The position numbers and the translations under genes were made by a program. Shown here one piece after another: positions 34,167 through 54,747 of a stretch of DNA of 64,000 bases. Below the pieces are notes generated by a model, which saw only the letters and a program-made list of their open reading frames with translations, searched no databases and was not told where the DNA came from. The DNA comes from Planctomycetota bacterium (lineage in GTDB: Bacteria > Planctomycetota > B15-G4 > SIAN01). Where the stretch lies: assembly GCA_031409275.1 (NCBI GenBank), contig JANNXA010000040.1, positions 96,001-160,000 of the forward strand, in the 5' to 3' direction. The number at the start of each line of letters is the position of its first letter. The first letter of the stretch is position 1.

Positions 34167-34887
34167 CTTGCTCTTCCAGGAGTCGCGCCGCCTTGAGTTC
34201 AGCCGAGAGCCGGCCGGGCTCGAGCGCAAGAGCGCGACGATAGCTGGCGAGCGCCTCCTCCTCGCGACCGGCGCAATGGAGGAAATCGGCGCACGCCTCG
34301 TGAACCCCCGCGTGTTCCGGCAGCCGCTCGCGCGCGCGCAGGAACAGCTCGAGTCCGCGCGCCGGCTCGCCCGCGTAGAGCAGCAACGGGTGCAGCATCT
34401 CGTAGAGCTCATGGTCGCGACAGCCGCCTGCTTCGATTCGCAGGAGTCGCGCCAACGCGAACTGCAGCTCATGGTGGCGCAACTCGAGGCGCGCGCGCAT
34501 CAGATTGGCGGCGAGGTCGTCGGGCGTGACTGCGAGCGCGGCGTCGAGCGCCTGGCACGCGCCCCCCTCGTCCCCGACGGCCAGCCGCAACTGCGCCAAC
34601 GCGACCTGCACCGGCACGACGCGCGGCGCGACGACCGCCGCCTGCGCCAGCAGGAGCAGCGCCTGATCGCGATCGCCGAGGCCTTGCGCGATGCGCCCGC
34701 GACAGAAGAGCGAGAGGGCCGCGGAATCGTCGTTCACCGCGGGACCACCGGCACCGGGCCCGCTGGAAGCGACCGTCGTCGCATCGGCGGCCGTGCGACA
34801 GCTCACCGCTCCCGACAGCAGGAGCAGGAGGACGCTCGGCCGCACACGGCGCAGCGGCAGCAGCACGGCGAACTGGAGTCGCGACAT
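34078..34887 (-). CDS. TPR-repeat lipoprotein
   Basis: MSRLQ...LLLLLSGAVSC lipoprotein-like signal, then TPR-like helices (ALASYRRALALEP). 3' end overlaps maf. Confidence 0.65.
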   Translation of the reverse strand: MSRLQFAVLLPLRRVRPSVLLLLLSGAVSCRTAADATTVASSGPGAGGPAVNDDSAALSLFCRGRIAQGLGDRDQALLLLAQAAVVAPRVVPVQVALAQLRLAVGDEGGACQALDAALAVTPDDLAANLMRARLELRHHELQFALARLLRIEAGGCRDHELYEMLHPLLLYAGEPARGLELFLRARERLPEHAGVHEACADFLHCAGREEEALASYRRALALEPGRLSAELKAARLLEEQGDRILRRLARPLGAGLGLPAAPHADGDRP

Positions 34888-35137
34888 GCGCGATGACGTA
34901 CCACTTCTGTTCCGCTCCGTGGGCGGCAGCGCCGGGCAATCCGCGCGCAGCGGAAGGAGATTCCTGTCGCGGCGCGGTTCGCGGGCTAAAGCTCGCCCGC
35001 CGCGCTCGCTCTCGCCTGGCCACGCCCCATCGACCGCACGTGAGGTACGCTCCGCGGCCTGACCTGAGAACGTTCGTTCACCCGACCGGCGCCCCGCGTC
35101 GCTGCGCGACGGCGATTCCCCTACGGAGTCTGCATCG

Positions 35138-36892
35138 ATGCTCACCCCCGCACTCGCCCTGATGTTGGGCAGCTTCGCGATGTCGGACTCCCCTTCACCG
35201 AGTGCGGCCGCGCCAGCGGCGGTCGGTCGAGCGCGACGCGCCGGCGAGACGTTGCGCGATCGCGTGCTGCTCAAGCTGACGGCCGATGCGGCCACCCGCG
35301 CGGCAACGGCCACGCCGACGCGGTTCGGACTCGCGGCGCTCGATCGCGTGCTGGCCGAGGTCGGCACGACGCGCGTGCGACCGGTCTTCGCTCGCCCACC
35401 GCGAGGACGCAAGGAGCCCGCCGCGGCCGCGGCGCTCGGCATCGACCGCTGGTTCCGCGTCGAGTTCGGACGTGACGTCGCCGACCTCGACGCGATCGTC
35501 GCTCGGTTCGCCAGGCTCGGCGTCGTCGAAGTCGCCGAGCTCGATCGAGTGGTGCTGCCGGCCGTCGTGCCGAGCGATCCCGACTACGTCGGTTCGCAGT
35601 GGTCGCTGCAGCCCGCGAAGAGCAACGCCGAAGGGGCCTGGGATACGGTCACCGACGCGAGCGGACTGCTGGTCTGCGTGATCGACACCGGCGTGCAGAC
35701 GACCCATCCCGACATCGTGGCGAACCTCTGGACCAATCCCGGCGAGATCGCCGGCAACGGAATCGACGACGAAGCCAACGGCTTCATCGATGACGTGAAC
35801 GGCTGGAACTTCCTGCTCGACAACAACGACGTCTGGGACAACTGGCCGCACGGCATGCACGTGAACGGCATCATCGGCGCGGCTGGCGACAACGCGACGC
35901 AGGTCACCGGCATCGCGTGGAAGTGCCAGTTGGTGCAGGGAAAGATCTTCGACCAGGGCACGGGCACCTGGGAGGCGGGTGCGGCCGCGACCGTCTACGC
36001 CGCCGACCTCGGCGCCAGCATCACCAACAACTCCTGGGGCGACACCGTCGCCGGACCGCAAGTCTTCGACGACGCGCGCGTCTACGCCGACGCAGCCGAC
36101 GTGCTGCAGGTCGCGGCCGCTGGCAACCAGGGCAACACCAACCCGTTCTGGCCGGCCTACTACGACGACTTCCTCTCGGTGGCCTCGACCCATTCAGGTG
36201 ATGGCCTCTCGGGCTTCTCCTCGCATGGCGATTGGATCGACATGTCGGCGCCAGGCGAGGGGATCTGGAACCTCTGGGTGAATGGCGGCACGGCATCGCT
36301 GTCGGGCACGTCGATGGCCTCGCCCCACGTCGCCGGCGCCGCTGCGCTGGTGCGCACCATCAATCCGCAGCTCGACGCCAACGAGACTCGCCTCACGCTC
36401 CGCCTCCACGGGGACGACCTTGGCACGCCCGGCTTCGACAACGACTTCGGCTTCGGTCGCCTCGACATCGCCGAGGCGGTCGCGGCCGCGCGCGCCCTCT
36501 CGCTGTCCAAGCAGTCCGCGATTCGCCCCGACAGCGTCGATCTCCTCCTCGACGCTCCGAGCGAGGCGGGCATGTACCACGTGCTGCTCGCCGGCATCTC
36601 GGGCAACGAGCCCGGAATCGAGCTCGCCGACTTCGATCCGGCGGACGCCCGCCTCTTTCCAATCCAGGAGGACCTGCTGCTCGACCTGATCGCCGCCGAT
36701 CCGTACTTCCCGCTCCTGCCGAACTGGTTCGACCTGCTCGACGCATCGGGCCAGGCGACTCGCACGTTCAGCGTCCTGAAGGGGAAGTTCTTCAAGAACC
36801 AGCGCGTGTCGCTCTGCTTCTGCACGCTCGACCCGGCCGACCTCAGCAAGATCCGCTTCGTCTCGGCGCCGGTGCATTTCGACGTTCAGTGA
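35138..36892 (+). CDS. Secreted S8 (subtilisin-like) serine peptidase
   Basis: Catalytic triad motifs IDTG, HGMHVNG and GTSMASPHV; oxyanion AAGN; prodomain; C-terminal accessory domain. Confidence 0.92.
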   Translation: MLTPALALMLGSFAMSDSPSPSAAAPAAVGRARRAGETLRDRVLLKLTADAATRAATATPTRFGLAALDRVLAEVGTTRVRPVFARPPRGRKEPAAAAALGIDRWFRVEFGRDVADLDAIVARFARLGVVEVAELDRVVLPAVVPSDPDYVGSQWSLQPAKSNAEGAWDTVTDASGLLVCVIDTGVQTTHPDIVANLWTNPGEIAGNGIDDEANGFIDDVNGWNFLLDNNDVWDNWPHGMHVNGIIGAAGDNATQVTGIAWKCQLVQGKIFDQGTGTWEAGAAATVYAADLGASITNNSWGDTVAGPQVFDDARVYADAADVLQVAAAGNQGNTNPFWPAYYDDFLSVASTHSGDGLSGFSSHGDWIDMSAPGEGIWNLWVNGGTASLSGTSMASPHVAGAAALVRTINPQLDANETRLTLRLHGDDLGTPGFDNDFGFGRLDIAEAVAAARALSLSKQSAIRPDSVDLLLDAPSEAGMYHVLLAGISGNEPGIELADFDPADARLFPIQEDLLLDLIAADPYFPLLPNWFDLLDASGQATRTFSVLKGKFFKNQRVSLCFCTLDPADLSKIRFVSAPVHFDVQ

Positions 36893-36954
36893 GGTGACGG
36901 ACGGGAGGCGGGGTCGGGAAGGGCGCCTCCGAAGGGCGCCTCGGGCTCTCCTGA

Positions 36955-37260
36955 TGGCGCGAAGCGAACCGCGAAGTCGACTTCGTCGCCCGCGCCGGCA
37001 AGACGCTGCTGGCGATCGAAGTGAGAAGCGGCGCCGCGAAGGGCGCGCCGCCGGGCCTGACCGCGTTCACCGCGAAGTTCCGCGGCGCGAAGGTACTGCA
37101 AGTCGGCGGCAGCGACGGCGTGTCGCTCGAAGATCTCTTGGCGAGCGAGGTGGAGACGTGGTTGGCGGGTTGGGGGGGGAAGTCCCGGGCGCGCTACGGC
37201 GCGCTGCCGCCGCCCGTCTCGAGGGTGACACGGCTCCCAACGCCGCGTTCGGGCCGGTAG
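36955..37260 (+). pseudogene. C-terminal remnant of an AAA+ ATPase / DUF4143-like protein
   Basis: After an in-frame TGA (36952-36954) the frame reads WREANREVDFVARAGKTLLAIEVRSG...GLTAF, matching the YWR...EVDF...IEVKS tail of this family. There is no room for an upstream ATPase domain. Confidence 0.65.
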
Positions 37261-37414
37261 TGCAGCAGCTCGAACCCGGTCACTCGGCCCGATGCGTGCT
37301 TCATCAGGACGACCTCGCGCGTCGTCTCCTCGCAGATCGCCTCCTTGGTGGGGTCGTCGGTCCAAATCGTGAGCGTGTGACCGGCGAGATCGTGAAACAC
37401 CCGGCCTTGTCCAT
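37194..37414 (-). pseudogene. Frameshifted DUF2283-like small antitoxin
   Basis: ATG 37414 (MDK) is one base out of frame with RVFHDLAGHTLTIWTDDPTKEAICEETTREVVLMKHASGRVTGFE. The span is 221 nt; adding one base restores MDKxRVFHD. Confidence 0.6.
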
Positions 37415-37494
37415 GTCCGCTCCCCCACCTTGATCGCATCGGTCGGATCGGCCGTGATCAAGGACCCGCCAGCCCCTTCCGGCCGAACCACCGG
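37405..37494 (-). pseudogene. C-terminal remnant of a DUF4258-like toxin partner
   Basis: Reads VVRPEGAGGSLITADPTDAIKVGERTWTR, like the LITAYPTD.IK.GE..W ending of small toxins upstream of DUF2283 genes. Overlaps the antitoxin ATG; N-terminus missing. Confidence 0.45.
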
Positions 37495-37643
37495 CGGCCC
37501 TCGCCGCCGCGTTTCGCTCCCTGAGGCGTCCGAACGGAGCGCCGCCGTGATCTAGGCCTACTCAGACTCGCGCAACCTGCGAACGTACGCTAAGAGATGC
37601 CCCCCTCGCGCGACCGAATCCGCCGCTGCCCGTCGGAGGTTGG

Positions 37644-38030
37644 ATGGACGCTCACGACCCTTGGTGGCTTCGATCGACCCTCAACGCCAAAGCTGCGCGG
37701 CGTCTGACGACGATGGAGCCGAAGCTCTGCGTTCCGGCGGCGTCGCGGACCTACTACGCGCTGTTCCAGGCATGCATCGCTCACTTCGAAGCTGCCGGGA
37801 AGCAGGCGTCCGATTTCGGATCGAACGAGCAGCGGTGGCGCCACACGCCGGTCATGAACAACCTCAACGCGGTGCCGCGACTTTGCGCGCTTGGGAAGCA
37901 CCTCAAGTCCCTGTTCATCAAGCTGCGAAGTCGACGCGAGAATGCCGACTACGGCCCGGAGCTGCCGGAAGACGACGACGTGATCGCCGATCTCCACGAA
38001 CTGGAACGACTCCTCCCTCAACTCAAATGA
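37644..38030 (+). CDS. HEPN-domain protein (UPF0332-like), putative RNase toxin
   Basis: AASRTYYALFQA (cf. SRAYYAxF) and C-terminal RENADY (RxxADY); 128 aa, looks helical; GGAGG RBS at 37635-37639. Confidence 0.75.
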   Translation: MDAHDPWWLRSTLNAKAARRLTTMEPKLCVPAASRTYYALFQACIAHFEAAGKQASDFGSNEQRWRHTPVMNNLNAVPRLCALGKHLKSLFIKLRSRRENADYGPELPEDDDVIADLHELERLLPQLK

Positions 38031-38043
38031 ACCCGCGCCGCCG

Positions 38044-38619
38044 ATGAATGACCACCCTTCAATCGCCGAGCTCATCCTCAGTCGTTTTCGCGACGAGCGG
38101 TTCGGCCTCGACGTGACTGCCTGCCACGGAGTCGACCCTGAGACCGGCAACTCTCGGATCGAGATCCACGCGTTCCACGACGGTCGGGGCGATCGCCGTT
38201 CCGTCGAATCCCAGTTCTTCGACACCCTTGCCTCCATCGATCTCTCGGGTCAGACGGTTGATGTCGCCGGCGAACTCCACCCTGCGACGGCTACGACAGC
38301 TATCCGCGCTTCCGTGATCGCGCGAGAACTCATCCCGTCGTACATCGCGCTGCGCGCGGAGCCCTGCGCAGCGCAGCCCATCCGAGACAGATGGAGTCTT
38401 TCGTCGATCCGGACGGGAACGGCATCGCTCGAATCGAGGTCGACACATCGCATCGACTTTGCGATCCGCGATCTCTCCTCGACCGTCTTGGTAGATCTCG
38501 GCCCCCACGCTTCTAGTGGCGCATCACTCGCATGGCGTTTCAGTGGTCCACATCGTTGGACCCTGGCTTCAGACGCTGTGAACTCGCGAGACGGCAGCGA
38601 ACTCGGAGCCGCCGCATGA
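38044..38619 (+). CDS. Putative antitoxin: degenerate MNT-like N-domain plus Ser/Thr-rich aromatic tail ending ELGAAA
   Basis: Starts 13 bp after the HEPN stop; its own stop overlaps the secB-like ATG (ATGA 38616-38619). Function inferred from position and sequence pattern only. Confidence 0.55.
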   Translation: MNDHPSIAELILSRFRDERFGLDVTACHGVDPETGNSRIEIHAFHDGRGDRRSVESQFFDTLASIDLSGQTVDVAGELHPATATTAIRASVIARELIPSYIALRAEPCAAQPIRDRWSLSSIRTGTASLESRSTHRIDFAIRDLSSTVLVDLGPHASSGASLAWRFSGPHRWTLASDAVNSRDGSELGAAA

Positions 38620-39101
38620 GTTCCGCTCCAAGAGCGACAGAAGGTTTCAAGGTCCACGCGATCTTGCTCGAGCGCTCGAGTTTCGCGCGGCACCTGCAAG
38701 CCGAGTCCAAGTCAGGGACGTCCGGTGCGCAAGGACACTTCGATCTCGACGTGAAGCGGAACCTGCCGCCGACCCCCATCACTCGCCGATTCACTGAGTC
38801 ATTGACCGTCACCGCACGGGGACTCATCGGAAGCGTCGAGACTTGGAGAGCGGAAGCGACCTACCTCGGCGAATTCGAACTCGCCGAGGACTCCGAGGTG
38901 TCGATCGAGTCAGCGACCACCGTTCATGTCCCCGCACTCCTTTACGGATTCGCCCGCGAGCATCTCGCCGACCTCACCCGCAGGTCGCTCGTCGGCCAGC
39001 TGATGCTGCCGCCGATGCGATTCGTCGAAGACGAGGCGCAAGCGGAAACGGTGGCGGACGTTCCGGTGCCCACCGCCAAGAAGCAGCCGCGCAAGCGGTG
39101 A
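38616..39101 (+). CDS. SecB-like chaperone
   Basis: 161 aa; HVPALLYGFAREHLADLTRRSLVGQLMLPPMRF parallels the SecB signature P.ILFPYARE.I.....R..FP.L.L.P.NF; also KVHAILLERSSF and ATYLGEF strands. Confidence 0.8.
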   Translation: MSSAPRATEGFKVHAILLERSSFARHLQAESKSGTSGAQGHFDLDVKRNLPPTPITRRFTESLTVTARGLIGSVETWRAEATYLGEFELAEDSEVSIESATTVHVPALLYGFAREHLADLTRRSLVGQLMLPPMRFVEDEAQAETVADVPVPTAKKQPRKR

Positions 39102-39154
39102 CCGCGTACCCGGCAGTTAGGAGCTGGGAACCGCGCCGCGCCGGCGCCCCAACG

Positions 39155-41926
39155 TCATGGTGGATCGACGACCTCGACCCATGCGATGAGTTCCGTCGAG
39201 TAACTGCCGCCCTCCACCACCAGCTGGCGATGGAGCAGCTCGCGCTCGAGCATCGGTTCGATCGCCGCGAGCAGTCGGTGGGCATCAGCTCGCGTGGCGG
39301 ACGGAGACGCAGGTGTTCCGGCATCGAGCACGCCCGATCCGAGGCGCTCGAGTGCGACGTGACGCACGCCGTCGCCCGTCACCGCAAGCGAGACGAGTGA
39401 CGTTCGCTGCTCCGCCCCTCGCCGTTCGGACTGCACACGCCAGACGGAGAGAACGCCCGGACCGACCGGATGCCGCAGCGCGACACCAACCTCGCCGGGT
39501 TCGAGCGTCCCCGCCTTGCGGATCGCATCGGCCACCAATGGGTGGTCGAGGCCCAGCAGTTCGAGCCCGTCCTCGTTCCTCGACCGTTCGCGATCGAGCG
39601 TGAATCGCCGCGACTTAGCACCGTCGCGTTCGACAACGACGCACTCGCCGCCTTCGCGAACCTCGAGTGCTCGGCCATCGAGTTCGAGCGACGCGCTCAG
39701 GAATCTCCTCATCCGCTCCAACCCCGGCTTCACGTCCGCGAACGGCTGATAGTCATCGAGCGAGAAGCCGTCCAAGTCCTGGAACAGTTCGAATACGACC
39801 TTGCGCGCGACCCGGGCGTTGTCGAGCGCCGCCGCCAGCTCCTCCTCCGTCCGTCGCAGGTCGGGGTCGTCCAGCGCCTCGCGGTAGAGGCGGTCGTACG
39901 ACAGCCGCTCGGAAAGCTGTCCCAGCACCTGACTGCGCAAGTCCTCGGCGACGTTGCCGTGCTCGTCGACCTTGCCGAGCGTCTTCGCGATCTCGCCCAG
40001 CTTCTCGTCGAGCAGCAGGTAGATGCGCCCCTCGATCGTGTCGGAGAGGACGAGGTTGTAGACCTGCGCGGTGTGCTTCTGCCCATAGCGATGGATGCGC
40101 CCGATGCGCTGCTCCATGTCCATCGGGTTCCACGGCAAGTCGAAGTTGAAGAGGATCCTCGCGAACTGCAGGTTGATCCCCTCGCGCCCCGCTGCCGTGC
40201 AGACGAGCACTCGCGGACCGTCGGCCCGCTTGAAGCGCTTCTCCGCGGCCAGCTTGGAGCCGTGGTCGCCGCCGCGCAGGACGACGACGCCTTGGCCGGG
40301 AAACGTGCGAGTGATCTCCTGCTCCAGGAGTTCCACCGAGCCGAGGTAGGTCGCGAAGATCACGACGCGTTCCGACGGGTCCTGCCGCCACAGCTCGCCG
40401 AGGCCGCGCAACAGCTTCTCGACCTTTGTCTCGGGTTGAGTCGGGAACGCCTGCAGCAGATCGCGGATGCGCAGGCGCTCTTCGGGCAACGCGAGGTTCA
40501 CCGCCATGGCGGCCACCTCTTCGCCGCCCACTGCTGTCAGCTCACCGGCCGCGGTATCGGCCGCCTGTTCGAGTTCCTCGTCATCGAGCCGCTGGAGGAG
40601 CTTGAGCCTCAGCTCGGCGACGATCGCATCGACCTTGCCGGTGCCCACCTCATCGCGAGGGATCCCGTGCTCTTCGTGCACGAGATCGCGGGCTTCGGCG
40701 TGGAGCTGCTGGCGCGCGTCAAGGTCGAGTTCACGGTCCCTCAGGATCGCCTCATGCAGCGTCAGCATCAGCAACCGGCGTCGCAGCGTCCGGCGGACCG
40801 CGGCGAAGCTCGATGCCGCGATCTTCTGGAAGATCGTCATCACGAAGCCGAGCGCGCGCCCCTCGTTGCCGCGCCGATTCGCCAGCGCGAAGCCCTCCTT
40901 CAGGTAATCGTTCAGCGCCACGTAGAACGCGCGTTCGTCGGAGTCCATCGTGAACGACTCGGTACGCACCTGCCGACGCGCGAAGAGCGGCGCCCCATCC
41001 GGACGACACGCGTCCGCCTTCGTTCGCCGGAAGACCACGGAATTGAGTCGGTGGCGATTCTCGACCATGTCCTCCGCGCTGAGGAAGAGCGTCGGATCGA
41101 GCAGCTGCACCAGCATCCAGAAGCGGAAGTGGTCGCCCTGGTGCGGCGTCGCCGACAGCAGCAGCAGGTCGCGCGAGTGCTCCTTCAAGGCCTCGGCGAG
41201 CTTGTAGTTCTCGGTCTTGCGCGTCCGCTTGCCGCTCTGGAACGCAGAGAGGTGGTGCGCTTCGTCGAAGACCACCAGGTCCCAGCGCGGCGCGTCGAGC
41301 AGCCGCTTGATCCGCGCCGGCCTCTTCAGCGTGTCGATGCTGGCGATCAGACGGTCGTGCTTGGCGAAGGCGTTCGACTTGCGGTCGGTCACGTCCCCTT
41401 CGCTGCCGAAGACCTCGAATCCGAGCCGGAAGACCTCGTTCATCTCGCGGTGCCAGTTGTTCACCAGACCGGCCGGCACCACCATCAACGCGCGGTCGAG
41501 CTCCCCGCGGCTGGCCAGCTCGCGCAGCACCAACGCCGTCTCGATGGTTTTGCCGAGCCCTACTTCGTCGGCGACCAGGAAGCGTCGCGGGGAGGCCGTC
41601 GCGATGCGATGGGTCAGGACGACCTGATGCGGCAGCAGGTCGATCGGAGCAGCGGTCAGGGCGGCAGCACTCTCGATCAGCGGCAGCGCATGGGCCTCGT
41701 GGACCAGCCACGCCGTGCGGCGACGCGCCTCGCTCGACGCGACCCCGGCGACCACTCGGTCGGCGCGCGATTGGAACGGCTGCACCTCGGCCAGCGCGAC
41801 CTGTCGTTCACCGACGGAGAAGAAGACGCGCAGGTAGTCGTTGCGCGCAGGAGCAAGGACGACCCCCTCGCCGAGTTCGGCGTGGCGAATCCGGGCGCCG
41901 GGCACGAAATCGGGCGAGCGCTCCAT
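39155..41926 (-). CDS. SNF2/RapA-like SF2 helicase
   Basis: LLPHQ, LVADEVGLGKT, DEAHH, SATPHQG, AGREGINLQ, LPWNPMDMEQRIGRIHRYGQ. Start ATG 41926. Confidence 0.92.
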   Translation of the reverse strand: MERSPDFVPGARIRHAELGEGVVLAPARNDYLRVFFSVGERQVALAEVQPFQSRADRVVAGVASSEARRRTAWLVHEAHALPLIESAAALTAAPIDLLPHQVVLTHRIATASPRRFLVADEVGLGKTIETALVLRELASRGELDRALMVVPAGLVNNWHREMNEVFRLGFEVFGSEGDVTDRKSNAFAKHDRLIASIDTLKRPARIKRLLDAPRWDLVVFDEAHHLSAFQSGKRTRKTENYKLAEALKEHSRDLLLLSATPHQGDHFRFWMLVQLLDPTLFLSAEDMVENRHRLNSVVFRRTKADACRPDGAPLFARRQVRTESFTMDSDERAFYVALNDYLKEGFALANRRGNEGRALGFVMTIFQKIAASSFAAVRRTLRRRLLMLTLHEAILRDRELDLDARQQLHAEARDLVHEEHGIPRDEVGTGKVDAIVAELRLKLLQRLDDEELEQAADTAAGELTAVGGEEVAAMAVNLALPEERLRIRDLLQAFPTQPETKVEKLLRGLGELWRQDPSERVVIFATYLGSVELLEQEITRTFPGQGVVVLRGGDHGSKLAAEKRFKRADGPRVLVCTAAGREGINLQFARILFNFDLPWNPMDMEQRIGRIHRYGQKHTAQVYNLVLSDTIEGRIYLLLDEKLGEIAKTLGKVDEHGNVAEDLRSQVLGQLSERLSYDRLYREALDDPDLRRTEEELAAALDNARVARKVVFELFQDLDGFSLDDYQPFADVKPGLERMRRFLSASLELDGRALEVREGGECVVVERDGAKSRRFTLDRERSRNEDGLELLGLDHPLVADAIRKAGTLEPGEVGVALRHPVGPGVLSVWRVQSERRGAEQRTSLVSLAVTGDGVRHVALERLGSGVLDAGTPASPSATRADAHRLLAAIEPMLERELLHRQLVVEGGSYSTELIAWVEVVDPP

Positions 41927-41933
41927 CGACCGC

Positions 41934-42451
41934 CTACGAGATTCGTTGCAGGTGGAGGCCGACGTACGCGTCACCGTCGAGGTCGGGGCTCTTCTCCGTC
42001 GAGTCGAGGATGCGCGCCACGTCGGCCTCGGCGCCGCCGAAGAGGCAGCGACCGAGCGGCAGCAGTTCGGCGGACCGATCGACCGAGGAGCGCCAGCGGT
42101 ACGACTCGTCGGTCGAATCCATGGTGATGCGCTTGCGTCCGGAAGGCAGCCAGAAGAGGAGCGCCGCTTGGCCCGCGTAGTGGTCCTGGAACTCGAGGAT
42201 CGAGCTCCTCAGGTCCTCCTCGAGCCATCGCTCCGCGTCTGCCGCCGCCAGCGCATCGAGGCAGCCTTCGAGACCCGCGACGACCAGTGCGTCACCCGAC
42301 GTCGCCGGGAGAGTCGACGGCCACTTCGACTGCAGCCGGAAGTACTGATGCATCGACACCACCGCCGGCAGCTCGACGACGCGAGCAAGCGCTTGCGGGC
42401 TCCAGAGCAGCGACACCCCCTGCCGTTGCCAGCTCGAATGGCGAATCGTGT

Positions 42452-42455
<4 letters not shown>
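41934..42455 (-). CDS. Hypothetical protein within the defence operon
   Basis: GTG start overlaps the methyltransferase stop; ends 7 bp before the helicase ATG; globular-looking alpha/beta sequence (LVVAGLEGCLDAL). Confidence 0.75.
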
Positions 42456-45685
<3,230 letters not shown>

Positions 45686-45688
45686 GCG

Positions 45689-46720
45689 TCAGCTCCCGCC
45701 CGGCCGCGACAGCTCGAGGAACGGCACTGCGACCTCCAGCAGCGACAGCCCGCCATGGGTCAGCGTCGGGTAGCCGCCCGGGCTCTTCCACTTGCGCCGA
45801 CCCAGCACGAAGCGCCGATCGCCGTGCGCGGTCTGCAGCTGCACGTCGAGCGGTGGAACCCAGCCAGGCTCGCCGCCGGAGGCACTTCCGGAGGTGCTCT
45901 CCGTGGTCGCTGCCGAACGGCCGCTCTTGAATCGTTCCTTCAGGTACTGCGCTTGGGCCGGATCGCTGACGTCGGGGAATCCGGCGCTCTCCGCGTAGCC
46001 GTGGTCGGCGGTGATGACGAGGCGCCTGCCGGTGGTGAGCTGTCGCACCAGATGCCAGAAGGGGTCGCCGAGAAGATGGCGACTGGCCTCGTCCGCCAGT
46101 GACTTGAGCACAGGTCCGGGCCCAGCGAGGTCGTGTACCCGATCGTCGGGCCAACCATGCCAGAGGATCCAGTCCGGAGTTGCGTCGATCATCCGCGCGC
46201 ACTCCTCCCAAGGTGCGGACGTCGATTCCGTCTTCGCGCCGCGCAGGCGTCCGGTGACGCCGCTGCCGCCGCTCTCCAACGCGCTCCGACCGGAAAGACC
46301 GAGCGCCTTGGCGAAGGGCGTCGTTTCCGCGGGCAATTCGGCGGCGGTCGGCCGCGCTTGGTGGACCACGTAGCCGCGAGCCCCTGCGCCTTGCAGCAGC
46401 CACGGCAGCTCGCGCAACGAGAGCGCATCGAGGATCAGGATCGCCCGCGCCGAACGGCGTTGCTCCCACCACTCGATCAGCGCCGGCGCAGTTCGCGGCG
46501 CGGCACGCTCGTACTCGACCCAGAGGTCCCATGCCGCCGTAGCGAGGAAGAGGTCGACCGGTGCGAGCGCAGCGTCGCGTTGCGAAGCAGCTTTCGCGGC
46601 GTCGTTCGCCGACAACGGCGCCGCGAAGCGCTGCCACGCGTCGTCGAGCAGCGCCGCCCAAGCCTCCTTCGGCGAAGCGGATTGGAGCGCGCGCAGAAGC
46701 GGCAGCGGCAGCGAGGTCAC
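45689..46720 (-). CDS. Minimal PglZ-like (alkaline phosphatase superfamily) protein
   Basis: Metal-binding motifs LILDALS, PAETTP, ITADHGY and THGGLSLLEVAVP in PglZ order; only 343 aa. Confidence 0.8.
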   Translation of the reverse strand: MTSLPLPLLRALQSASPKEAWAALLDDAWQRFAAPLSANDAAKAASQRDAALAPVDLFLATAAWDLWVEYERAAPRTAPALIEWWEQRRSARAILILDALSLRELPWLLQGAGARGYVVHQARPTAAELPAETTPFAKALGLSGRSALESGGSGVTGRLRGAKTESTSAPWEECARMIDATPDWILWHGWPDDRVHDLAGPGPVLKSLADEASRHLLGDPFWHLVRQLTTGRRLVITADHGYAESAGFPDVSDPAQAQYLKERFKSGRSAATTESTSGSASGGEPGWVPPLDVQLQTAHGDRRFVLGRRKWKSPGGYPTLTHGGLSLLEVAVPFLELSRPGGS

Positions 46721-49452
46721 GACTCTTCCTTGTTGAGCGTGAGTTCGTAGGTGACGCCGTCGGGGAGCTTCTTCAGCAGATCGTTCAACTGCGCGCCGGT
46801 CATCACGCCGACCCGGATCTGGACATCCTGCACGCGCGTCCCCGTCCGGATCCCCCAGCTCTCGACCTTGCCCATCAGGTTGAGCGCCGAAGTCGCGGTC
46901 ACCGAGCTCAGCGGACGAAGCGGTCGCGGGCCTTGGAAGAGATCGCCGCTGTTGCCGGTGGCGGGTCCGGTGGGTGCCGGTGCGATCGCCCGGTCGATCA
47001 GGCGCTGCTCGTCGCTCGGAATCACGTAGCCCACGGGACGCGGCGAGTCGGGAGATGCCGTCGGGTTTGCATTCGGGGCTGCATTCGTGCCGACCATCCC
47101 CTCCGCGCGCGGGCTCGCCTGCGGCAGGCGCATGGGCGACTCGTCCAGATGACGGCCGCTGCCAAGCTTCCCGCGGATCCGTCGGTAGGTCGCGTCGGCT
47201 TCCTCGCCGGGATCGGCCTGCAGCAGCTCCATCCCGCGGAGGTCGACGGCGACTTCACCCCGCGCGCAGCACCAGAGGAGCTTCTCCTTCATCGCGGCTT
47301 CGCCGAGCCACGCAATCGACCGCGCACCACCGGGTCGTGGCTCCTGCAGTTCGCGCAGGAAGCCGCCGACCGACTTGCTCTCCTTCGCGGCCTGACGCAC
47401 CAACTCGGAGAAGTCCTCGGCCACGAAGAGATCGCGGGCGACCAGCTTGTGCACCTCTTCGGGAATCGCCGAGCCCTCGACCCGATGCGATTCGACGCGG
47501 AAGGTCGAGCGCTCTGGCTCCTGGAACGACCAGCTCTCCACGATCGCGAAACGGTCGAAGCGCTTGGCCAGGACATCGCGCAGCTGCCGCTCGTGCTTCT
47601 GCTGGAGCTTTCGGTACTCCGGGCTCTGCGCCTTCCAGGCGTCCGCCAGGTGGATGGCCCGCGCCAGGAACTTCAGCGGCGGCTCGTAGAAGAGGTTCGG
47701 GCTGCCGTCGCGTGGCACGAGGAAGCGCACCGCGTTGCGCCGCGAGCCGAGCCGGTTCCGCAGCCACTTGCCGAGGGTTGCTTGCAAGTCGCCGGACGGA
47801 GCCTCGGGCAACACCAGCAACGGGATGCGCTCGTCCCAATGGTCGGGCAGGTCGCGCTCGTCGAGGCCGCGGAACGGGTCGTTCTCCCAATCGGCGGCGA
47901 GGACGACGACCCGGAATAGCGGGATCGCCTCGTCGGAGCCGCCGATCACGTAGCGCACCTCGCGGGCGAGACGCTTCAGGTCCTCACCGCCCTCGAACAG
48001 CCGCTGGTTGCGCGCGTTGGCGAACAGCTTCGCCTGCGGATTCTCTTCCTCGCGAAAGACGAGGCGTTCGCCCTCCTCGTGGATGTTGAAGCTGTTCTCG
48101 ATGATCCGCTGCAGCTCGACCCCGAAGCCGTTGACATCGAGCGGCTTGCCGCGCGTGAGGTCGACTTGCAGCTCGGCGCGCGTTGCGCCGGCGTTGCGCA
48201 GAGCCAGCGAGCGCAGCCAGAGTGACGCGACGATCTCCTCGAGGTGGGGCACGTCCTCCTTGGGAACCGTGACGGCGTCGCGCACGGCGCTCAGGTTCCG
48301 CTGCGCCTTCTCGCGCAGCGTCTGGTACTGGAGGTTCGACACCGAGTCGAGCAGGGCGGCGACCCCGCTCTTCGTGTCGTCAAGCAGGAAGTCGGCCGGC
48401 GTGATCAGCGGCGATACCTCGCCGCGCGACTTGTAGACCGCAGCCAGCACCTTGATCAGGTCGCGCGTCTCCTGCGCCTGAGTCGCCTTCAGGACCTCGT
48501 CCTCGAGCAGCGTCATCAACGTCGGCGAGAAAGGCCACGCCTCGACGAACTCGCGGCGCACGCGCTCCTGATCGGCGGGCGCGATCCCGGCAATTCGCAG
48601 GTGGGTGTCGACGTGCGCCGTGATGAGGGTCTCGATCGATGGCGCCGCCACTTGCAACCGGTTCGTGAAGAGCCGGTGCAGCAGTAGCCGAAGACGGTCG
48701 ACGCGCTTGCGCGGGCCCTTGAAGTCGATCAGCTGCGGGTTCATCCGAGCGATCTGCTGGAAGGCGTCCGACTCGCCATTGCGTACCGAGACGACCAGCA
48801 CCAGCAGGTCGGGGTGCTCGCGCGCGATGTCGGTGAGGATCTGGACGAAGTTGAAGGCCCAGGCGCGTGCCGGGATCTGCTTGCTGTTCGAGAGCCCGTC
48901 GAACCAAGTTTGGTACTCGTCGAGGATCAGTGCCGTCGGCTGCTTGCGGAAGAGTTCGAGGAGCAGGTCCGAACCCGGCATGTCGGTCTTGCGCGCGCCC
49001 TGCGAGTCCCACATCCCGCGTACGTATTCGCCGTGCGGGTGCCTCTCGAAGAGCAGGTCCCAGAGGAACTTGAAGCTCTGGCGGTGGAGACTCTCACTGA
49101 TGACGTGCATGCCGGAGCGCAAACGCAGCGACGCCGGTCGGGGGTCAGCAAGGCGCTCGGACCACTCTGCCAGCCAGCGGCGCGTCTCCTCCGGGCTGGT
49201 CAACGCATGGTGCAGCGCCGCCAGTAGGTGCGACTTGCCGAGCCCGCGCTCACCGATCAGGACGACTGGCTTCCCCGTTCCGGGGCCGGTCGCCTCGATC
49301 GCCTGCAATACGTCAAACGTCGGATAGGTGATCGCAAGGTGCGCGGACGCAGCGATCTGGATCGCACCCGTCCTCTCGCGGTTCGAGAACTCGATCGCCG
49401 TGCCTTCGAGGCGACGGCTCTTGAACTCTTCGCGGAGCATCAGGCCGAGCAT
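46717..49452 (-). CDS. Large P-loop ATPase (DUF499/BrxC-like)
   Basis: ITYPTFD, Walker A GERGLGKSH, Walker B LILDE, WPFSP..., QETRDLIKVLA; first gene of the coupled operon. Confidence 0.8.
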   Translation of the reverse strand: MLGLMLREEFKSRRLEGTAIEFSNRERTGAIQIAASAHLAITYPTFDVLQAIEATGPGTGKPVVLIGERGLGKSHLLAALHHALTSPEETRRWLAEWSERLADPRPASLRLRSGMHVISESLHRQSFKFLWDLLFERHPHGEYVRGMWDSQGARKTDMPGSDLLLELFRKQPTALILDEYQTWFDGLSNSKQIPARAWAFNFVQILTDIAREHPDLLVLVVSVRNGESDAFQQIARMNPQLIDFKGPRKRVDRLRLLLHRLFTNRLQVAAPSIETLITAHVDTHLRIAGIAPADQERVRREFVEAWPFSPTLMTLLEDEVLKATQAQETRDLIKVLAAVYKSRGEVSPLITPADFLLDDTKSGVAALLDSVSNLQYQTLREKAQRNLSAVRDAVTVPKEDVPHLEEIVASLWLRSLALRNAGATRAELQVDLTRGKPLDVNGFGVELQRIIENSFNIHEEGERLVFREEENPQAKLFANARNQRLFEGGEDLKRLAREVRYVIGGSDEAIPLFRVVVLAADWENDPFRGLDERDLPDHWDERIPLLVLPEAPSGDLQATLGKWLRNRLGSRRNAVRFLVPRDGSPNLFYEPPLKFLARAIHLADAWKAQSPEYRKLQQKHERQLRDVLAKRFDRFAIVESWSFQEPERSTFRVESHRVEGSAIPEEVHKLVARDLFVAEDFSELVRQAAKESKSVGGFLRELQEPRPGGARSIAWLGEAAMKEKLLWCCARGEVAVDLRGMELLQADPGEEADATYRRIRGKLGSGRHLDESPMRLPQASPRAEGMVGTNAAPNANPTASPDSPRPVGYVIPSDEQRLIDRAIAPAPTGPATGNSGDLFQGPRPLRPLSSVTATSALNLMGKVESWGIRTGTRVQDVQIRVGVMTGAQLNDLLKKLPDGVTYELTLNKEES

Positions 49453-49715
49453 TCGTCAGGCTCCGTAGGTCGTGAATCGGCGGCAGGTTAGCGCGAAGCG
49501 TCCGCAGCGTCGCCGGTCTCGATCCCCTCCGGCAATGCGAAACCGTGGACTGGCGAGCGCTAGGCCGAGAAGCACCCGCTGGCGAGAGTGCGGTCACGAG
49601 CGCATCCTCCAAAGCGAGTTCGAAGCCGGTCGGTCCAGATGGTCGACTCACTGACCGTTCGATGCGGTTTTCCCTTAGCCACGCCCCCGCCACCTCCTCC
49701 CTACCACCCCCCTTC

Positions 49716-50972
49716 ATGGCCCTCGCCTCCCCCATCGCGTGGACCGACACGACTTGGAACCCGGTCACCGGGTGCGACAAGGTGAGCCCGGGCTGCACGC
49801 ACTGCTACGCCGAGCGGATGGCGACGCGGCTCGCGGCGATGGGGCAGGCCAACTACGCGCGCGGGTTCGAGCTGACGCTGCAACCGGCGATGCTGGAGCT
49901 GCCGCTCCGGTGGCGCAAGTCGCGGCGGATCTTCGTCAACTCGATGAGCGACCTGTTCCACGACGAGGTTCCGCTCGACTACGTGCGACGGGTCTTCGAC
50001 GTGATGCAGCGCGCGAGCTGGCATGAGTTCCAGGTGCTCACCAAGCGAGCGGAGCGGCTGGCGCAGGTCGCTTCGCTGCTGCCCTGGCCGCGCAACATCT
50101 GGATGGGCGTCAGCGTCGAGAGCGAGAAGTTCGTCGCGCGCATCGAGGCGCTGCGGACGGTCCCGGCGGCAGTGCGCTTCCTTTCGCTCGAGCCGCTGCT
50201 CGGGCCGCTGCCGGCGCTCGATTGGCGCGGGATCGACTGGGCGATCGTCGGTGGCGAGTCGGGGCCGGGCGCGCGGCCGCTCGACCCGGCGTGGGTGCGC
50301 GACCTGCGCGAGCAGTGCGCCGCCGCGCGCGTCCCGTTCTTCTTCAAGCAATGGGGTGGTGTGCGGAAGAAGGCGACCGGCCGCGTGCTGGATGGCCGGA
50401 CGTGGGACGAGTTGCCGACGCCCCAAGTCGATCGGAGTCCACGCGACGGCTGCATGCCGGCAGGCGTTGAATCGCGGCTTCCGCCTTTGCACTCTCACGT
50501 TCCACCGTCCCGGCCCCCTCGCTCCTCGAAGGACGCCGCCCCCATGCCCTCCTCCCCCATCCCCTCCTCCTTCGACGACTTCGAGCAGGAGCAGCGCTCC
50601 TTCGACCTGATCGATCAGCACCGCGCCGCGCTCGCCGCCGAGGCGGTGCGCATCGCGCGGGAGGCGCCGGACGCGGCCGTGGCCGGGCTCGCCGGGCTCA
50701 TCGTGACGGCGGAGGCGCCCGAGGCGGAGGCGCTGCTCGCCGCGATCGGGTTGCCGGAGGAGGCGGCGCGCAGCGGCTTCCTCGGCATCGTGCCGCGCGA
50801 GCTGGCGGCGGCGATCCTGCGCGACGTGGCGATGGAGGCGCTCGACGAGCTGGTGCGCCTCGAGGCGAAGGTGGCGGCGGGAGCGCGGCCGTTGGCGATC
50901 GTGCTGCTGGCGAAGGAGGGGCTGCGACTCGGGCTCGCGAGCTACGAAGCGGAACCGACGGCAGGTGGTTGA
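49716..50972 (+). CDS. DUF5131 (phage Gp37/Gp68-like, radical-SAM-like) protein reading through into a second hypothetical ORF
   Basis: [68 protein letters not shown] (about 50416). No stop until 50972. Confidence 0.85.
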
Positions 50973-50991
50973 GCGCCGCGCGACCGCTCGC

Positions 50992-51447
50992 ATGGCCACC
51001 GTTCGCAAGGCATCGGCCCGCACCTCCGCTTCCACGCTGACGATTCCCGCCTACGACAGAGCGCAGCCGGCGCCGCTCGCGGCAATCTGCCGGAAGCTGC
51101 GCGCCGCCCTCACGCGCGGGCTGCCGGCGGCGAAGGCGATGGTGTGGCACGGCTCGCCGGTCTGGTTCGTCGGCGAGGTGCCGGTGGCCGGCTACTGCGT
51201 CGGCGCGAAGGGCGACGTGCAGCTCCTCTTCTGGAACGGCCAGGCGTTCGACGAGCCAAGCCTCGCGCCGCTCGGCAAGTTCCGCGCTGCCGAGGCGCGC
51301 TACCGCAGCGCGGCAGAGCTCGACGCGACGACGCTCGAGCGGTGGCTGACGAAGGCGGGCACTCAGTGGTGGGACCTCGACGAGCTGCGCGTGCGCCGCG
51401 AGACGGCGCAAGCGGCGAAGCGGAAGGCGGCAAAGCGCAAGCGGTGA
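50992..51447 (+). CDS. DUF1801 (YdhG-like) protein
   Basis: VWHGSPVWF..PVAGY, LLFWNGQAFDEP, WLTKA...WD. Confidence 0.75.
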   Translation: MATVRKASARTSASTLTIPAYDRAQPAPLAAICRKLRAALTRGLPAAKAMVWHGSPVWFVGEVPVAGYCVGAKGDVQLLFWNGQAFDEPSLAPLGKFRAAEARYRSAAELDATTLERWLTKAGTQWWDLDELRVRRETAQAAKRKAAKRKR

Positions 51448-51474
51448 GCGGCGCGCACGGTGGCGCGCGCCCCC

Positions 51475-54400
51475 TCACCGGAAATCACGCGACCGCGTCG
51501 CGAGCCGCCGGACCTGCTCGCTCAGGTCGGCGACGCGCTCGGCGAGCAGGTGCACCACGTCGCCGACGCGTTCCACCTTGCCCCGGACCAGCAGGAGGCG
51601 GCCGCTGATCACGGCCAGCCGATGCCTCTGTTGTTCGCGCTCGCGCACGATGACGTTGGCGACGCCGCTCTCATCCTCGAGCGTCATGAAGAGCACGCCC
51701 GACGCGGTGCCGGGCTTCTGGCGGTGCAGCACGAGGCCGGCGACGGCGGTGCGCGCGCCCTGCAGCGCGCGCGCCAGCACGCTGCACGGCGCACCGCCCA
51801 GCTGCGCCACGCGCGAACGCAGGAAGCGCAGCGGATGGGAGTGGAGCGTCAGCCCGGTCAACGCGTAGTCGGCGACGACGAGCTCCTCTTCGCGCGGCGG
51901 CGGCAAGGACGGCGCGGCCACCGTGTCGACCACCGCTTTCTCGAAGAGCGGCGCCGCTTCGCCCGCTGGCGCCGCCTGCCACCACGCCGCGCGGCGATGC
52001 GCCGCCAACGCCCCGAACGCGCCCGCCTCGGCCAGCAGGCGCGCGTCGCGCCGGGGAAGCTGCGCGCGCCGCGTCACCTCCTCCACATCGACGAAGGGCT
52101 GCTGCGCGCGCGCCGCCAGCAACCGCGCGACGCTCGCCGGCGACACGCCTTTGATCAGCTGCAATCCCAGCCGCAACGCCGGCACGGCCACTCCGCCGGC
52201 ACGGCCATCGACTTCGAGCGTCGACTCCCACGCGCTCGCAGCGACGTCGACGGCGCGCACCTCGACGCCATGCGCCCGCGCGTCGCGCACCAGCTGCGCC
52301 GGCGCATAGAAACCCATCGGCTGGCTGTTCAGCAGCGCGCAGGTCAACGCCGCCGGATGGTGGCACTTCAACCAGCACGACACCCAGGTCAGCAGCGCGA
52401 AGCTCGCCGCGTGGCTTTCGGGGAAGCCGTACTCGCCGAACCCCTTCAGCTGCTCGAAAAGGCGCCGCGCGAACTCGTCCGAGTAGCCGCGCGCCAGCAT
52501 CCCGTCGACCAGCTTCTTCTCGAAGCTCGCGATCAGGCCAGGCCGCCGCCACGCCCCCATCGCGCGCCGCAGCAGATCGGCCTCGCCCGGAGTGAAGCCG
52601 GCGGCGACCACCGCGAGCTTCATCGCCTGCTCCTGGAAGATCGGGACGCCGAGCGTCTTCTCCAGCACCGCCTTCACCGCTTCGGAGGGGTAGTCGACCC
52701 TCTCCTCGCCGGCGCGCCGTCGCAGGTAGGGATGGACCATGCCACCCTGGATCGGACCAGGCCGCACGATCGCCACCTGGATCACCAGGTCGTAGAAGCA
52801 GCGCGGCTTCAAGCGCGGCAGCATCGCCATCTGCGCACGGCTCTCGATCTGGAAGGTGCCGATGGTGTCGGCGCGCTGCACCATCGCCCAGGTCGCCGCG
52901 TCGTCCGCCGGCACGTTCGCCAGCGTGAGCTCGACGCCATGCACCGCGCGCACCAGCTCGAAACAGCGACGGATCGCGGAGAGCATCCCGAGCGCGAGGC
53001 AGTCGACCTTCAGGATCTTCAGCGCGTCGAGATCGTCCTTGTCCCACTGCAGGACGGTGCGCCCCTCCATCGCCGCGTTCTCGATCGGACAGAGCTCGTC
53101 GAGCCGTCCGCGCGTCATCACCATGCCGCCGACGTGCTGCGAGAGGTGACGCGGGAAGCCGTGCAGCTCGCGCGCCAACGCGACCACGCGACGCAAGGTC
53201 GCGTCGTGCGGATCGAAGCCCGCTTCGCGCAACGTCGCATCGGGCCAATCCGCTTCGTCCCAGCCGTGCAGCACGCCGGCCAGCCGCTCGACCTGATCGA
53301 GCGAGAGGCCAAGCGCCTTGCCGACATCGCGCACCGCGCTGCGCCCTCGCCACGTGATCACCGTGCCGGTCATCGCGCAGCTCTCGCGACCGTGACGCTC
53401 CCACAGATGCTGCAGCACCTCCTCGCGCCGCTCGTGCTCGAAGTCGATGTCGATGTCGGGCGGCTCGTTGCGATCCTTCGAAAGGAAGCGTTCGAAAAGG
53501 ACGTCGAAGCGATCGGGATCGACCGAGGTGACGCCCAGGCAGTAGCAGACCGCCGAGTTGGCCGCGCTGCCGCGCCCCTGGCAGAGGATCCCGCGCCCGC
53601 GCGCGAAGCTGACCAGCTCATGCACGGTGAGGAAGTAGCTCTCGTAGCGCAGCTCCGCGATCAAGCGCAGCTCGTGGACGAGGAGCTTCTGCACCTTGTC
53701 GGGGATGCCGCCCGGCCAGCGCGCGCGCGCGCCGGCCAGCGTCAGCTCGGTCAAGCGCGCGTGGTCGCCCTCGTCGGGATAGGTGTAGCGCAGCTCGTCG
53801 AGGCGGAAGGTGCAGTGCTCCGCCACGTCGAGCGTCCGTTCGAGCAGTTCGAGGCGGCCGCGCGACCCGCCGGCGCCGCCAGGACCGTAGAGGCGTCGCA
53901 GTTCGGCGAGCGGCCGCAGCGGGCGCACCCCTTCGGTCGGCACGCGCTCGCCGAGTTCGGCCACGGTGCAGCCGTGACGGATGGCGAGGAGCGTGTCGCG
54001 CAGCGCGCGGCGCGCCGGGTCGTGCGTCTCGACCGCGCCGGTCGCCACCAACGGCAGCCGCGTCGCCGCGGAAAGATGATCGAGGCGCGCGAGGCGAGCG
54101 CGATCGTCGGGGCCGTCGGCGAGGTTCGCGGCCAGCCACGCACGCTCGCCGAACAGCTCCTGCAGCCAACGCAGCCGCAACGCCGCGTGCGCCAGCTCCG
54201 CCGCGCCGGCCCGCGGAGCCAATGCCGCCTCGTCGGGCAATCCGATGGCGAGCAGCCCTTCCGCGTGGTCGGCGAGCAGCGCGCGATCGAGCCGCGCCTC
54301 ACCTTTCGGAGCGGCGCGTCTTCCCGCCGTGATCAAACGCGCGAGGCGCCCATAAGCCGCACGATCGGTGGCGTAGAGCAGCACGGTCGCGCCATCGATC

Positions 54401-54726: not shown

Positions 54727-54747
54727 CGATGCGCCCTCGCGACCGCC

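What the first reader, a model, noticed from the sequence alone, without database searches (positions are those of the whole stretch)
39155..49452. Five-gene BREX-related / restriction-like operon: ATPase - minimal PglZ - DUF1156 MTase - small ORF - SNF2 helicase
Seen: five coupled - strand genes (4-bp overlaps at 46717-46720 and 42452-42455; gaps of 3 and 7 bp), all with intact catalytic motifs. Established: PglZ plus a large ATPase define BREX/Pgl, while DUF499 ATPase + DUF1156 methylase + SNF2 helicase define a separate restriction-like defence type. Inference: this is a hybrid with PglZ but no recognisable PglX, BrxA, BrxL or DUF3780, probably a methylation-based self/non-self antiphage system. 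Related loci may have been noted computationally; I know of no functional characterisation.
Basis: partly seen in the sequence, partly recalled or inferred. Interest (0 to 1): 0.75.

Follow-up and report, generated by a model that had tools for sequence, protein, structure and literature searches.

The report
Intact Type-3 BREX-related defence operon
Five tightly packed, intact genes match, gene for gene, a bacterial anti-virus system type catalogued by computer in 2026 and, as far as my searches reach, never tested; it likely marks the cell's own DNA by methylation and likely cuts unmarked invading DNA, and it sits in a chromosomal slot where a sister species carries a different BREX system.

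Summary
In detail: five coupled minus-strand genes with the stated overlaps and gaps; four have intact catalytic motifs, the small ORF has none. It is not a new hybrid. It matches the published Type-3 BREX-related (BR) system (Rakesh & Krishnan, NAR 2026): DUF499 AAA+ ATPase, stand-alone PglZ, DUF1156 methyltransferase with two zinc fingers, degenerate P-loop protein, nuclease-free SNF2 helicase. That type is known from 569 taxa by computation; five searches found no experimental test. PglZ was confirmed by fold (PorX Z 14.5, BREX PglZ Z 10.6). The small protein folds confidently into an eroded P-loop-like domain, but a link to BrxB was not shown. Gene order is conserved in 15 of 20 related loci (the other 5 run into contig ends). 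The operon fills a variable slot that is empty in one congener and holds Type-2 BREX genes in another. Likely mechanism, inferred from MANTIS (Type-2 BR) and BREX: ATPase-loaded hemimethylation of a short asymmetric site marks self; helicase plus PglZ attack unmarked DNA. This scan reported the same operon type before on other DNA. New member of a known kind; modest interest.

The parts
46717..49452 (-). DUF499-type (BrxC-like, ORC/Cdc6 clade) AAA+ ATPase, 911 aa; Walker A 67-74, Walker B D178-E179
   Evidence: Pfam DUF499 E 6.5e-5, 21.4 bits, just under the 23-bit cut-off; 15 of 17 aligned homologues hit DUF499 at E<=0.01, best 2.3e-11; 51.6%-identical plasmid homologues are annotated 'DUF499 domain-containing protein'; motifs conserved
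45689..46720 (-). Stand-alone minimal PglZ (alkaline-phosphatase superfamily phosphodiesterase/nuclease), 343 aa, without the long N-terminal region of BREX PglZ
   Evidence: Model pLDDT 72.6; Foldseek best hits PorX, E 7e-5; VIA-align PorX Z 14.5, BREX PglZ 9zn5_D Z 10.6 (chain residues 383-756), 9nv3_C Z 8.8 (369-739), next row 5.7; DHG and HGG motifs align with PorX TDHG and HGG; D98, T133, D192, D239, H240, H322 invariant in 20 of 20
42452..45685 (-). DUF1156 (PglXI/HmaB/MtsC-like) amino-methyltransferase, 1077 aa; motif I FMGGG at 131, motif IV DPPF at 688, with a variable zinc-finger target-recognition insert between them
   Evidence: Pfam N6_N4_Mtase 2.7e-7, DUF1156 0.0014 (below cut-off); PADLOC HmaB 8.7e-39, PglXI 7.3e-23; eight invariant Cys (248, 253, 279, 282, 321, 324, 424, 427) in 13 of 13; mean pairwise identity falls to 0.30-0.58 over residues 276-675 against about 0.7-0.9 around the motifs
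41934..42455 (-). Small conserved protein, 173 aa; eroded P-loop-like alpha/beta domain without Walker A (the iSTAND position of Type-3 BR)
   Evidence: 346 relatives among 50%-identity cluster representatives; model pLDDT 94; fold matches are almost all AAA+/RecA/KaiC P-loop domains but weak, best Z 5.1; no Pfam, PADLOC or NCBIfam hit
39155..41926 (-). RapA/BrxHII-like SNF2 helicase, 923 aa, no recognisable fused nuclease
   Evidence: PADLOC BrxHI/BrxHII 2.3e-96; closest solved structures are RapA, 2.4e-48; no Pfam hit in the last 280 or first 80 residues; 12 aligned homologues 59-66% identical
37172..50524 (.). Variable chromosomal slot that holds the operon plus two flanking passengers (edges approximate)
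   Evidence: Congener G004 matches the window up to 37172 and again from 50524, with 20.9 kb of other DNA between encoding PglW, PglX, PglY, PglZ and BrxD of Type-2 BREX; congener G002 joins window 34402 to 51475 across about 640 bp

Best explanation
The locus is an intact five-gene Type-3 BREX-related operon that likely defends the cell against phages and plasmids by marking its own DNA with methyl groups and would attack DNA that lacks the mark. Shown here: gene content, order, coupling, intact ATPase, methyltransferase, PglZ and helicase motifs, the PglZ fold, and a defence-type insertion slot. Inferred from MANTIS (Type-2 BR): the DUF499 ATPase loads the DUF1156 enzyme onto a short asymmetric site of about 6 bp, chosen by the variable zinc-finger insert, and one strand is methylated on adenine. 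Inferred from BREX BrxB and MANTIS MtsB: the small P-loop-like protein binds and activates the ATPase. Inferred from MANTIS and Type I PglZ biochemistry: on unmarked DNA the site-bound methyltransferase-ATPase complex recruits the SNF2 motor, which tracks along DNA, and the stand-alone PglZ, the only candidate nuclease, nicks or cuts it; inverted site pairs would be hit hardest. Odds: Type-3 BR membership about 0.93; methylation-based defence about 0.85; this full mechanism with PglZ as the cutter about 0.55.
For: Gene-for-gene match to the published definition. Order ATPase-PglZ-MTase-small-helicase in 15 of 20 loci from genomes labelled Planctomycetota, Acidobacteriota, Proteobacteria, Synergistaceae and Chitinivibrionales among others, and on two plasmids examined. 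Patchy spread: PglZ found in 0 of 7 same-family and 0 of 41 same-order genomes, 2 of 60 relatives in all. The same slot holds Type-2 BREX genes in G004. Six of the 15 complete loci carry passenger genes between core genes, several matching defence or toxin-antitoxin models. The target-recognition region and the helicase tail vary most, as expected of a specificity system. MANTIS hemimethylates 6-bp sites, needs its DUF499 ATPase and small partner for methylation, and restricts phages and plasmids. Type I PglZ is a metal-dependent endonuclease whose T538 and H741 equal PorX T272 and H500; H322 here aligns with the PorX HGG motif, while T133 as the nucleophile is inferred from motif position and invariance.
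Against: No methylome, phenotype or expression data exist for this locus. Removing PglZ nuclease activity in Type I BREX cut defence by about 3 logs but left it active, so PglZ need not be the only killer. This PglZ has no counterpart to the first ~370 residues of BREX PglZ, including residues 1-98, which bind BrxB, so BREX wiring cannot simply be copied. Methylococcus capsulatus Bath encodes a 47%-identical PglZ (MCA2685, P0343), yet its methylome shows no unassigned asymmetric m6A site, only an unassigned CAAm4CTB, and its methyltransferase table lists no gene near MCA2685; I could not check whether that operon is intact. Four of the 15 complete loci (L002, L003, L012, L014) have interrupted reading frames. 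DUF499 and DUF1156 scores of the window's own proteins are below Pfam's cut-offs.
Confidence: 0.55

Rival explanations
1. Methylation marks self as above, but restriction is BREX-style exclusion: the complex blocks replication of unmarked DNA, and PglZ is a scaffold or a phosphodiesterase for short or cyclic oligonucleotides rather than the main DNA cutter.
For: Type I PglZ catalytic mutants keep part of the defence and all methylation; PglZ and PorX cleave cyclic and linear oligonucleotides; the closest fold is PorX, a signalling enzyme.
Against: Here PglZ stands where Type-1 and Type-2 BR carry a REase or PLD nuclease on the helicase, and no other nuclease was recognised in the operon; Type I PglZ nicks and linearises dsDNA.
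Confidence: 0.27
2. The five-gene core only senses and marks; killing depends on swappable passenger effectors, here possibly the convergent HEPN-like / unknown / SecB-like cassette at 37644-39101.
For: Six of 15 complete loci have passengers inside the operon; Sir2 genes follow PglZ in L005, L010 and a Klebsiella plasmid; the cassette lies inside the same variable slot.
Against: Nine of 15 complete loci have no passenger gene between the core genes; 0 of 20 loci hold relatives of the three cassette genes; the cassette recurs in L030 with a different downstream neighbour; it is on the opposite strand.
Confidence: 0.1
3. The operon is not an active defence system: an orphan modification module or a silent passenger.
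For: No functional data; the M. capsulatus methylome shows no matching m6A motif; interrupted copies in 4 of 15 loci.
Against: All five frames are intact and coupled here, with invariant catalytic residues across distant phyla; it alternates with Type-2 BREX in one slot; a Type-2 BR relative is a proven defence system.
Confidence: 0.08

Closest known systems
Type-3 DUF499-centred BREX-related (BR) system (Rakesh & Krishnan, Nucleic Acids Res 2026, gkag035; PMC12839542)
   Same: All five components: DUF499 ATPase, DUF1156 N6-MTase (here the two-zinc-finger form the paper describes for a subset), helicase without nuclease, stand-alone PglZ, separate small gene with eroded Walker motifs.
   Different: No difference found. 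I could not see the paper's supplement, so I do not know whether this taxon or this exact gene order is listed, nor could I place the ATPase in its tree.
MANTIS / Gao_RL, Type-2 BR (bioRxiv 10.64898/2026.09.23.753747)
   Same: DUF499 AAA+ ATPase, DUF1156-type methyltransferase with motif I before and motif IV after a central recognition domain, small partner, SF2 motor; the best experimental model for methylation.
   Different: MANTIS has DUF3780 (MtsB) and a PLD nuclease fused to the helicase; this locus has neither and has PglZ plus a P-loop-like small protein.
Type-3 BREX (brxF, brxC, pglXI, brxHII, pglZ, brxA)
   Same: PglXI-like methyltransferase, BrxHII-like helicase, PglZ.
   Different: ATPase is DUF499, with no BrxC hit; PglZ is 343 aa against a 642-position model, 16.8 bits against a 250 cut-off; no brxA-sized gene in the operon; the BrxF model finds nothing in this genome at E<=1e-15.
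Type-1 BR / Hma system
   Same: HmaA and HmaB models hit the helicase and methyltransferase strongly.
   Different: Three genes only, usually with a REase on the helicase tail; this helicase ends at 923 aa with no nuclease hit and the operon adds PglZ and the small protein.

Membership tests
Type-3 BR | DUF499 AAA+ ATPase with intact Walker motifs | tested here: met
   own score 21.4 bits is just under the Pfam cut-off, 15 of 17 homologues hit at E<=0.01
Type-3 BR | ATPase falls in the Type-3 clade of the published DUF499 tree | not testable with these tools
   Reference sequences are in a supplement that could not be read
Type-3 BR | DUF1156 N6-methyltransferase with nested recognition domain and zinc finger(s) | tested here: met
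   orthologue on a plasmid annotated DUF1156; pairing of the eight Cys into two fingers is inferred; the C-terminal HTH triad was not tested
Type-3 BR | SNF2 helicase of BrxHII/RapA type without nuclease fusion | tested here: met
   Tudor and inactive-REase domains were not folded, and absence of a nuclease rests on profile scans only
Type-3 BR | Stand-alone PglZ with metal-binding residues, on its own gene | tested here: met
Type-3 BR | Separate iSTAND gene: eroded Walker motifs, no C-terminal helical bundle | tested here: met
   No Walker A in 118 of 119 homologues; model ends in strands
Type-3 BR | iSTAND fold homologous to BrxB/BrxF with three-stranded cap after strand 4 | tested here: inconclusive
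   Order of helices and strands fits the description and matches are P-loop domains, but best Z is 5.1; profile comparisons with BrxB and BrxF gave no signal, nor did the BrxF-BrxB control
Type-3 BR | No conserved stand-alone nuclease next to the core | tested here: met
   Window neighbours are found in 0 of 20 loci, except DUF5131 in 1 of 20; passengers differ between loci
Type-3 BR | Methylation of self and restriction of invaders (predicted, not shown, in the paper) | not testable with these tools
   No methylome or phenotype available
Type-3 BREX | BrxC ATPase, full-length PglZ, BrxA and BrxF | tested here: not met
Type-2 BR (MANTIS/Gao_RL) | DUF3780 gene and PLD nuclease fused to the helicase | tested here: not met
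   No family hit for the small ORF; NF042964 scores 161 against 1100, best stretch in the helicase core
Type-1 BR (Hma) | Three-gene core without PglZ, usually helicase-REase fusion | tested here: not met
   Five-gene core with PglZ; no nuclease hit in the helicase tail
Type-1 BREX | PglX, BrxA, BrxB, BrxL | tested here: not met
   No such hits among the ten proteins scanned; Pfam BrxB finds nothing in this genome at E<=1e-15

The most novel reading that the evidence does not exclude
This is a split helicase-nuclease restriction machine in which a bare PglZ domain, stripped of its BrxB-docking region, is the sole DNA cutter and is wired directly to the AAA+ loader or the SNF2 motor. It would be the cleanest system in which to settle what PglZ does in BREX-type immunity. 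A bolder branch (about 0.08) is that these DUF1156 enzymes write m4C rather than m6A, which would explain the unassigned CAAm4CTB motif of M. capsulatus Bath, a strain with this PglZ; the motif resembles the MANTIS sites CAACAC and CAACAG.
Probability: 0.45. Interest if true: 0.55.

Novelty: new member of a known kind. Interest (0 to 1): 0.3.

Why it matters
How BREX-type systems stop phages is still open, partly because Type I BREX keeps some defence without PglZ activity. Type-3 BR has no other recognisable nuclease, so an intact, passenger-free copy like this one is a good construct to test PglZ as the effector and ATPase-loaded methylation as a general rule. The finding itself adds one more member to a type already counted in 569 taxa, plus a clear case of Type-3 BR and Type-2 BREX alternating at one chromosomal slot.

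Tried and rejected
New hybrid system: rejected, the type is published. Sequence libraries are nearly blind to PglZ and the small ORF: no Pfam hit for the window's PglZ and no PglZ-family hit in 20 of 20 aligned members; the best PDB sequence hits were designed helical repeats, judged chance; profile comparison with a Type-2 PglZ gave only 18% probability over 31 columns. Small ORF: no PDB sequence hit, no Atlas hit, no Foldseek hit at E<=0.001; BrxB chains are not listed in the fold searches, which excludes nothing; profile comparisons with BrxB and BrxF were blank, as was the control. Complex prediction of ATPase with the small protein was not available, so binding is untested. No att-like repeats, tRNA, consensus promoter or terminator were seen, and GC inside the slot (0.65-0.69) is close to the flanks. 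No RNA holder listed among sequencing runs. Joints have short sides at low likeness and were ignored. The supplement of PMC12839542 could not be read; it bears on whether this taxon and gene order are already listed. Look-ups of earlier scan notes by place and by sequence returned nothing.

Full report
Observation. The five ORFs, their overlaps (46717-46720, 42452-42455) and gaps (3 and 7 bp) are as described. The helicase start at ATG 41926 is supported by homologues. Catalytic motifs are present and conserved in the ATPase, PglZ, methyltransferase and helicase. The 173-aa protein has no catalytic motif: 1 of 119 homologues matches a Walker A pattern. Contigs of run X2 tile the operon at even depth with no differences and span both slot edges; X2 may be the source, so this only argues against a chimeric assembly.

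Gene identities. The ATPase hits DUF499 just under the Pfam cut-off; 15 of 17 aligned homologues hit it, and 52%-identical plasmid proteins carry that name. The 343-aa protein has only weak PglZ profile hits, but its model matches PorX and BREX PglZ well above all other folds: Z 14.5, 10.6 and 8.8 against 5.7 next. It aligns to BREX PglZ only from residue 369-383 onward, so it lacks the N-terminal part whose residues 1-98 bind BrxB. The methyltransferase hits HmaB, PglXI and DUF1156 models; motif I and motif IV flank a variable insert with eight invariant cysteines. The helicase is closest to BrxHI/BrxHII models and RapA, with no recognised nuclease in its tail. The small protein gives a confident model (pLDDT 94) whose matches are almost all P-loop NTPase cores but weak (best Z 5.1). 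Profile comparison with BrxB and BrxF was blank, as was the BrxF-BrxB control, so that test says nothing.

Conservation and mobility. A genome scan with PglZ gave 20 loci. The ATPase is directly upstream in 20 of 20. All five genes are present in order in 15 of 20; the other five (L005, L009, L010, L017, L019) reach a contig end within about 1.8 kb of the last core gene. Six of the 15 carry passenger genes between core genes and four have interrupted frames. A profile search found 2355 stand-alone-sized relatives among 7995 candidates scored. Two plasmid loci show the same order. Among 60 relatives of this genome only 2 have the PglZ, and 0 of 41 in the same order (many are incomplete). The operon lies in a variable slot, about 37172-50524: G002 joins the flanks directly, and G004 has 20.9 kb there with Type-2 BREX genes. 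This is the best local evidence that the locus is defence cargo.

Comparison with what is known. Rakesh and Krishnan define Type-3 BR as DUF499 ATPase, DUF1156 methyltransferase, nuclease-free BrxHII-like helicase, stand-alone PglZ and an iSTAND gene, in 569 taxa, some with two 4-Cys zinc fingers. The locus meets each feature I could test; the iSTAND fold link is inconclusive and clade placement was not testable because the supplement could not be read. It fails the defining features of Type-1 and Type-3 BREX, Type-1 BR and Type-2 BR. Five searches of an open-access library showed no experimental study of Type-3 BR; most subscription journals are not covered. Earlier scan notes list 28 findings with these words in at least 26 genomes, one of them the same five-gene operon; I had found the paper before that look-up.

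Mechanism. All functional steps are inferred. MANTIS shows that a DUF499 ATPase and a small partner load a DUF1156-type enzyme, which hemimethylates an adenine in a 6-bp asymmetric site and also aims the effector; restriction needs all components and favours inverted sites. In Type I BREX, BrxB docks on the BrxC AAA+ domain and PglZ is a metal-dependent endonuclease. I therefore propose ATPase-loaded hemimethylation for self, and SNF2 tracking with PglZ cutting for non-self (0.55). Against it: PglZ catalytic mutants of Type I BREX keep some defence; this PglZ lacks the BrxB-docking domain; and the methylome of M. capsulatus Bath, which encodes this PglZ, shows no unassigned asymmetric m6A site, though I could not check that its operon is whole. 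Rivals are BREX-style replication block with PglZ secondary (0.27), dependence on passenger effectors (0.10) and inactivity (0.08).

Papers seen. bioRxiv 10.1101/2025.10.09.681413: abstract, passages, sections on DUF499 systems and Type-3 BR; its journal version PMC12839542: passages only, no supplement. MANTIS preprint: abstract, Introduction, Discussion, structure section, first quarter of Results. PMC12205998: passages and one section. PMC13326643: abstract and part of one section. PMC13390346: first two of seven parts and passages. PMC9519451: passages. PMC11232893 (Hma): search listing only.

Verdict. Real, intact and well conserved, but a new member of a kind already catalogued. Interest 0.3: its value is as a clean, passenger-free test case for an untested type and for the role of PglZ.

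Noticed in passing
window 37644-39101 (+): Convergent three-gene cassette: HEPN-like ORF (37644-38030), unknown ORF (38044-38619), SecB-like ORF (38616-39101, Pfam SecB 1.5e-8). Relatives of the first two genes lie in the same order before a SecB-like match in L030, whose first gene hits Pfam HEPN weakly (0.0034). It resembles a toxin-antitoxin-chaperone module; such modules defend against phage (PMC9519451 passages). One search listed five papers with these terms; I read passages of one and saw no HEPN-type TAC described there.
   Followed up: partly
window 49716-50972 (+): DUF5131 gene divergent from the operon (Pfam 1.8e-101; PADLOC PDC-M41B and PDC-M30B) with no partner gene seen; its frame runs on without a stop into the conserved small gene beyond the slot edge. 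In L011 a PDC-M30A + DUF5131 pair sits inside the operon.
   Followed up: partly
L026 (G004:C11:290001-310000): Type-2 BREX genes PglW, PglX, PglY, PglZ, BrxD fill the same chromosomal slot in a congener (PglY scores below its cut-off). The stretch 287403-290000 was not fetched, so BrxHI was not checked.
   Followed up: partly
L003:16317-19586 and L006:14795-18031: In 2 of 13 aligned helicases the C-terminus carries an extra ~160 aa; the L003 tail hits ASCH above cut-off. A modified-base reader on the helicase could be a sub-variant.
   Followed up: partly
L021 (NZ_CP114377.1:2071-15100) and related plasmids: The PglZ occurs on 39 plasmid records, 28 from Klebsiella, 34 predicted conjugative; in the one examined a SIR2 and an ATP-binding gene sit between PglZ and the methyltransferase. 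Only 14 of 45 records matching the ATPase cover 80% or more of it; many lack its first 213 residues.
   Followed up: partly
P0343 (MCA2685, Methylococcus capsulatus Bath): A model strain encodes this PglZ and has an unassigned asymmetric motif CAAm4CTB; its 3-kb methylase MCA3008 was inactive alone in E. coli, as an ATPase-dependent BR enzyme would be. The Type III gene MCA0550 is an equally possible source of the motif.
   Followed up: partly
window 51475-57217 (-): RecA-like (weak), IMS/Y-family and DNA polymerase III alpha genes, an imuABC-like mutagenesis cassette (name recalled) next to the slot; conserved in congeners.
   Followed up: no
L002, L003, L012, L014: Interrupted copies: early stops or frameshifts (L002, L003, L012) and transposase-like insertions in the helicase (L012) or methyltransferase (L014).
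   Followed up: no
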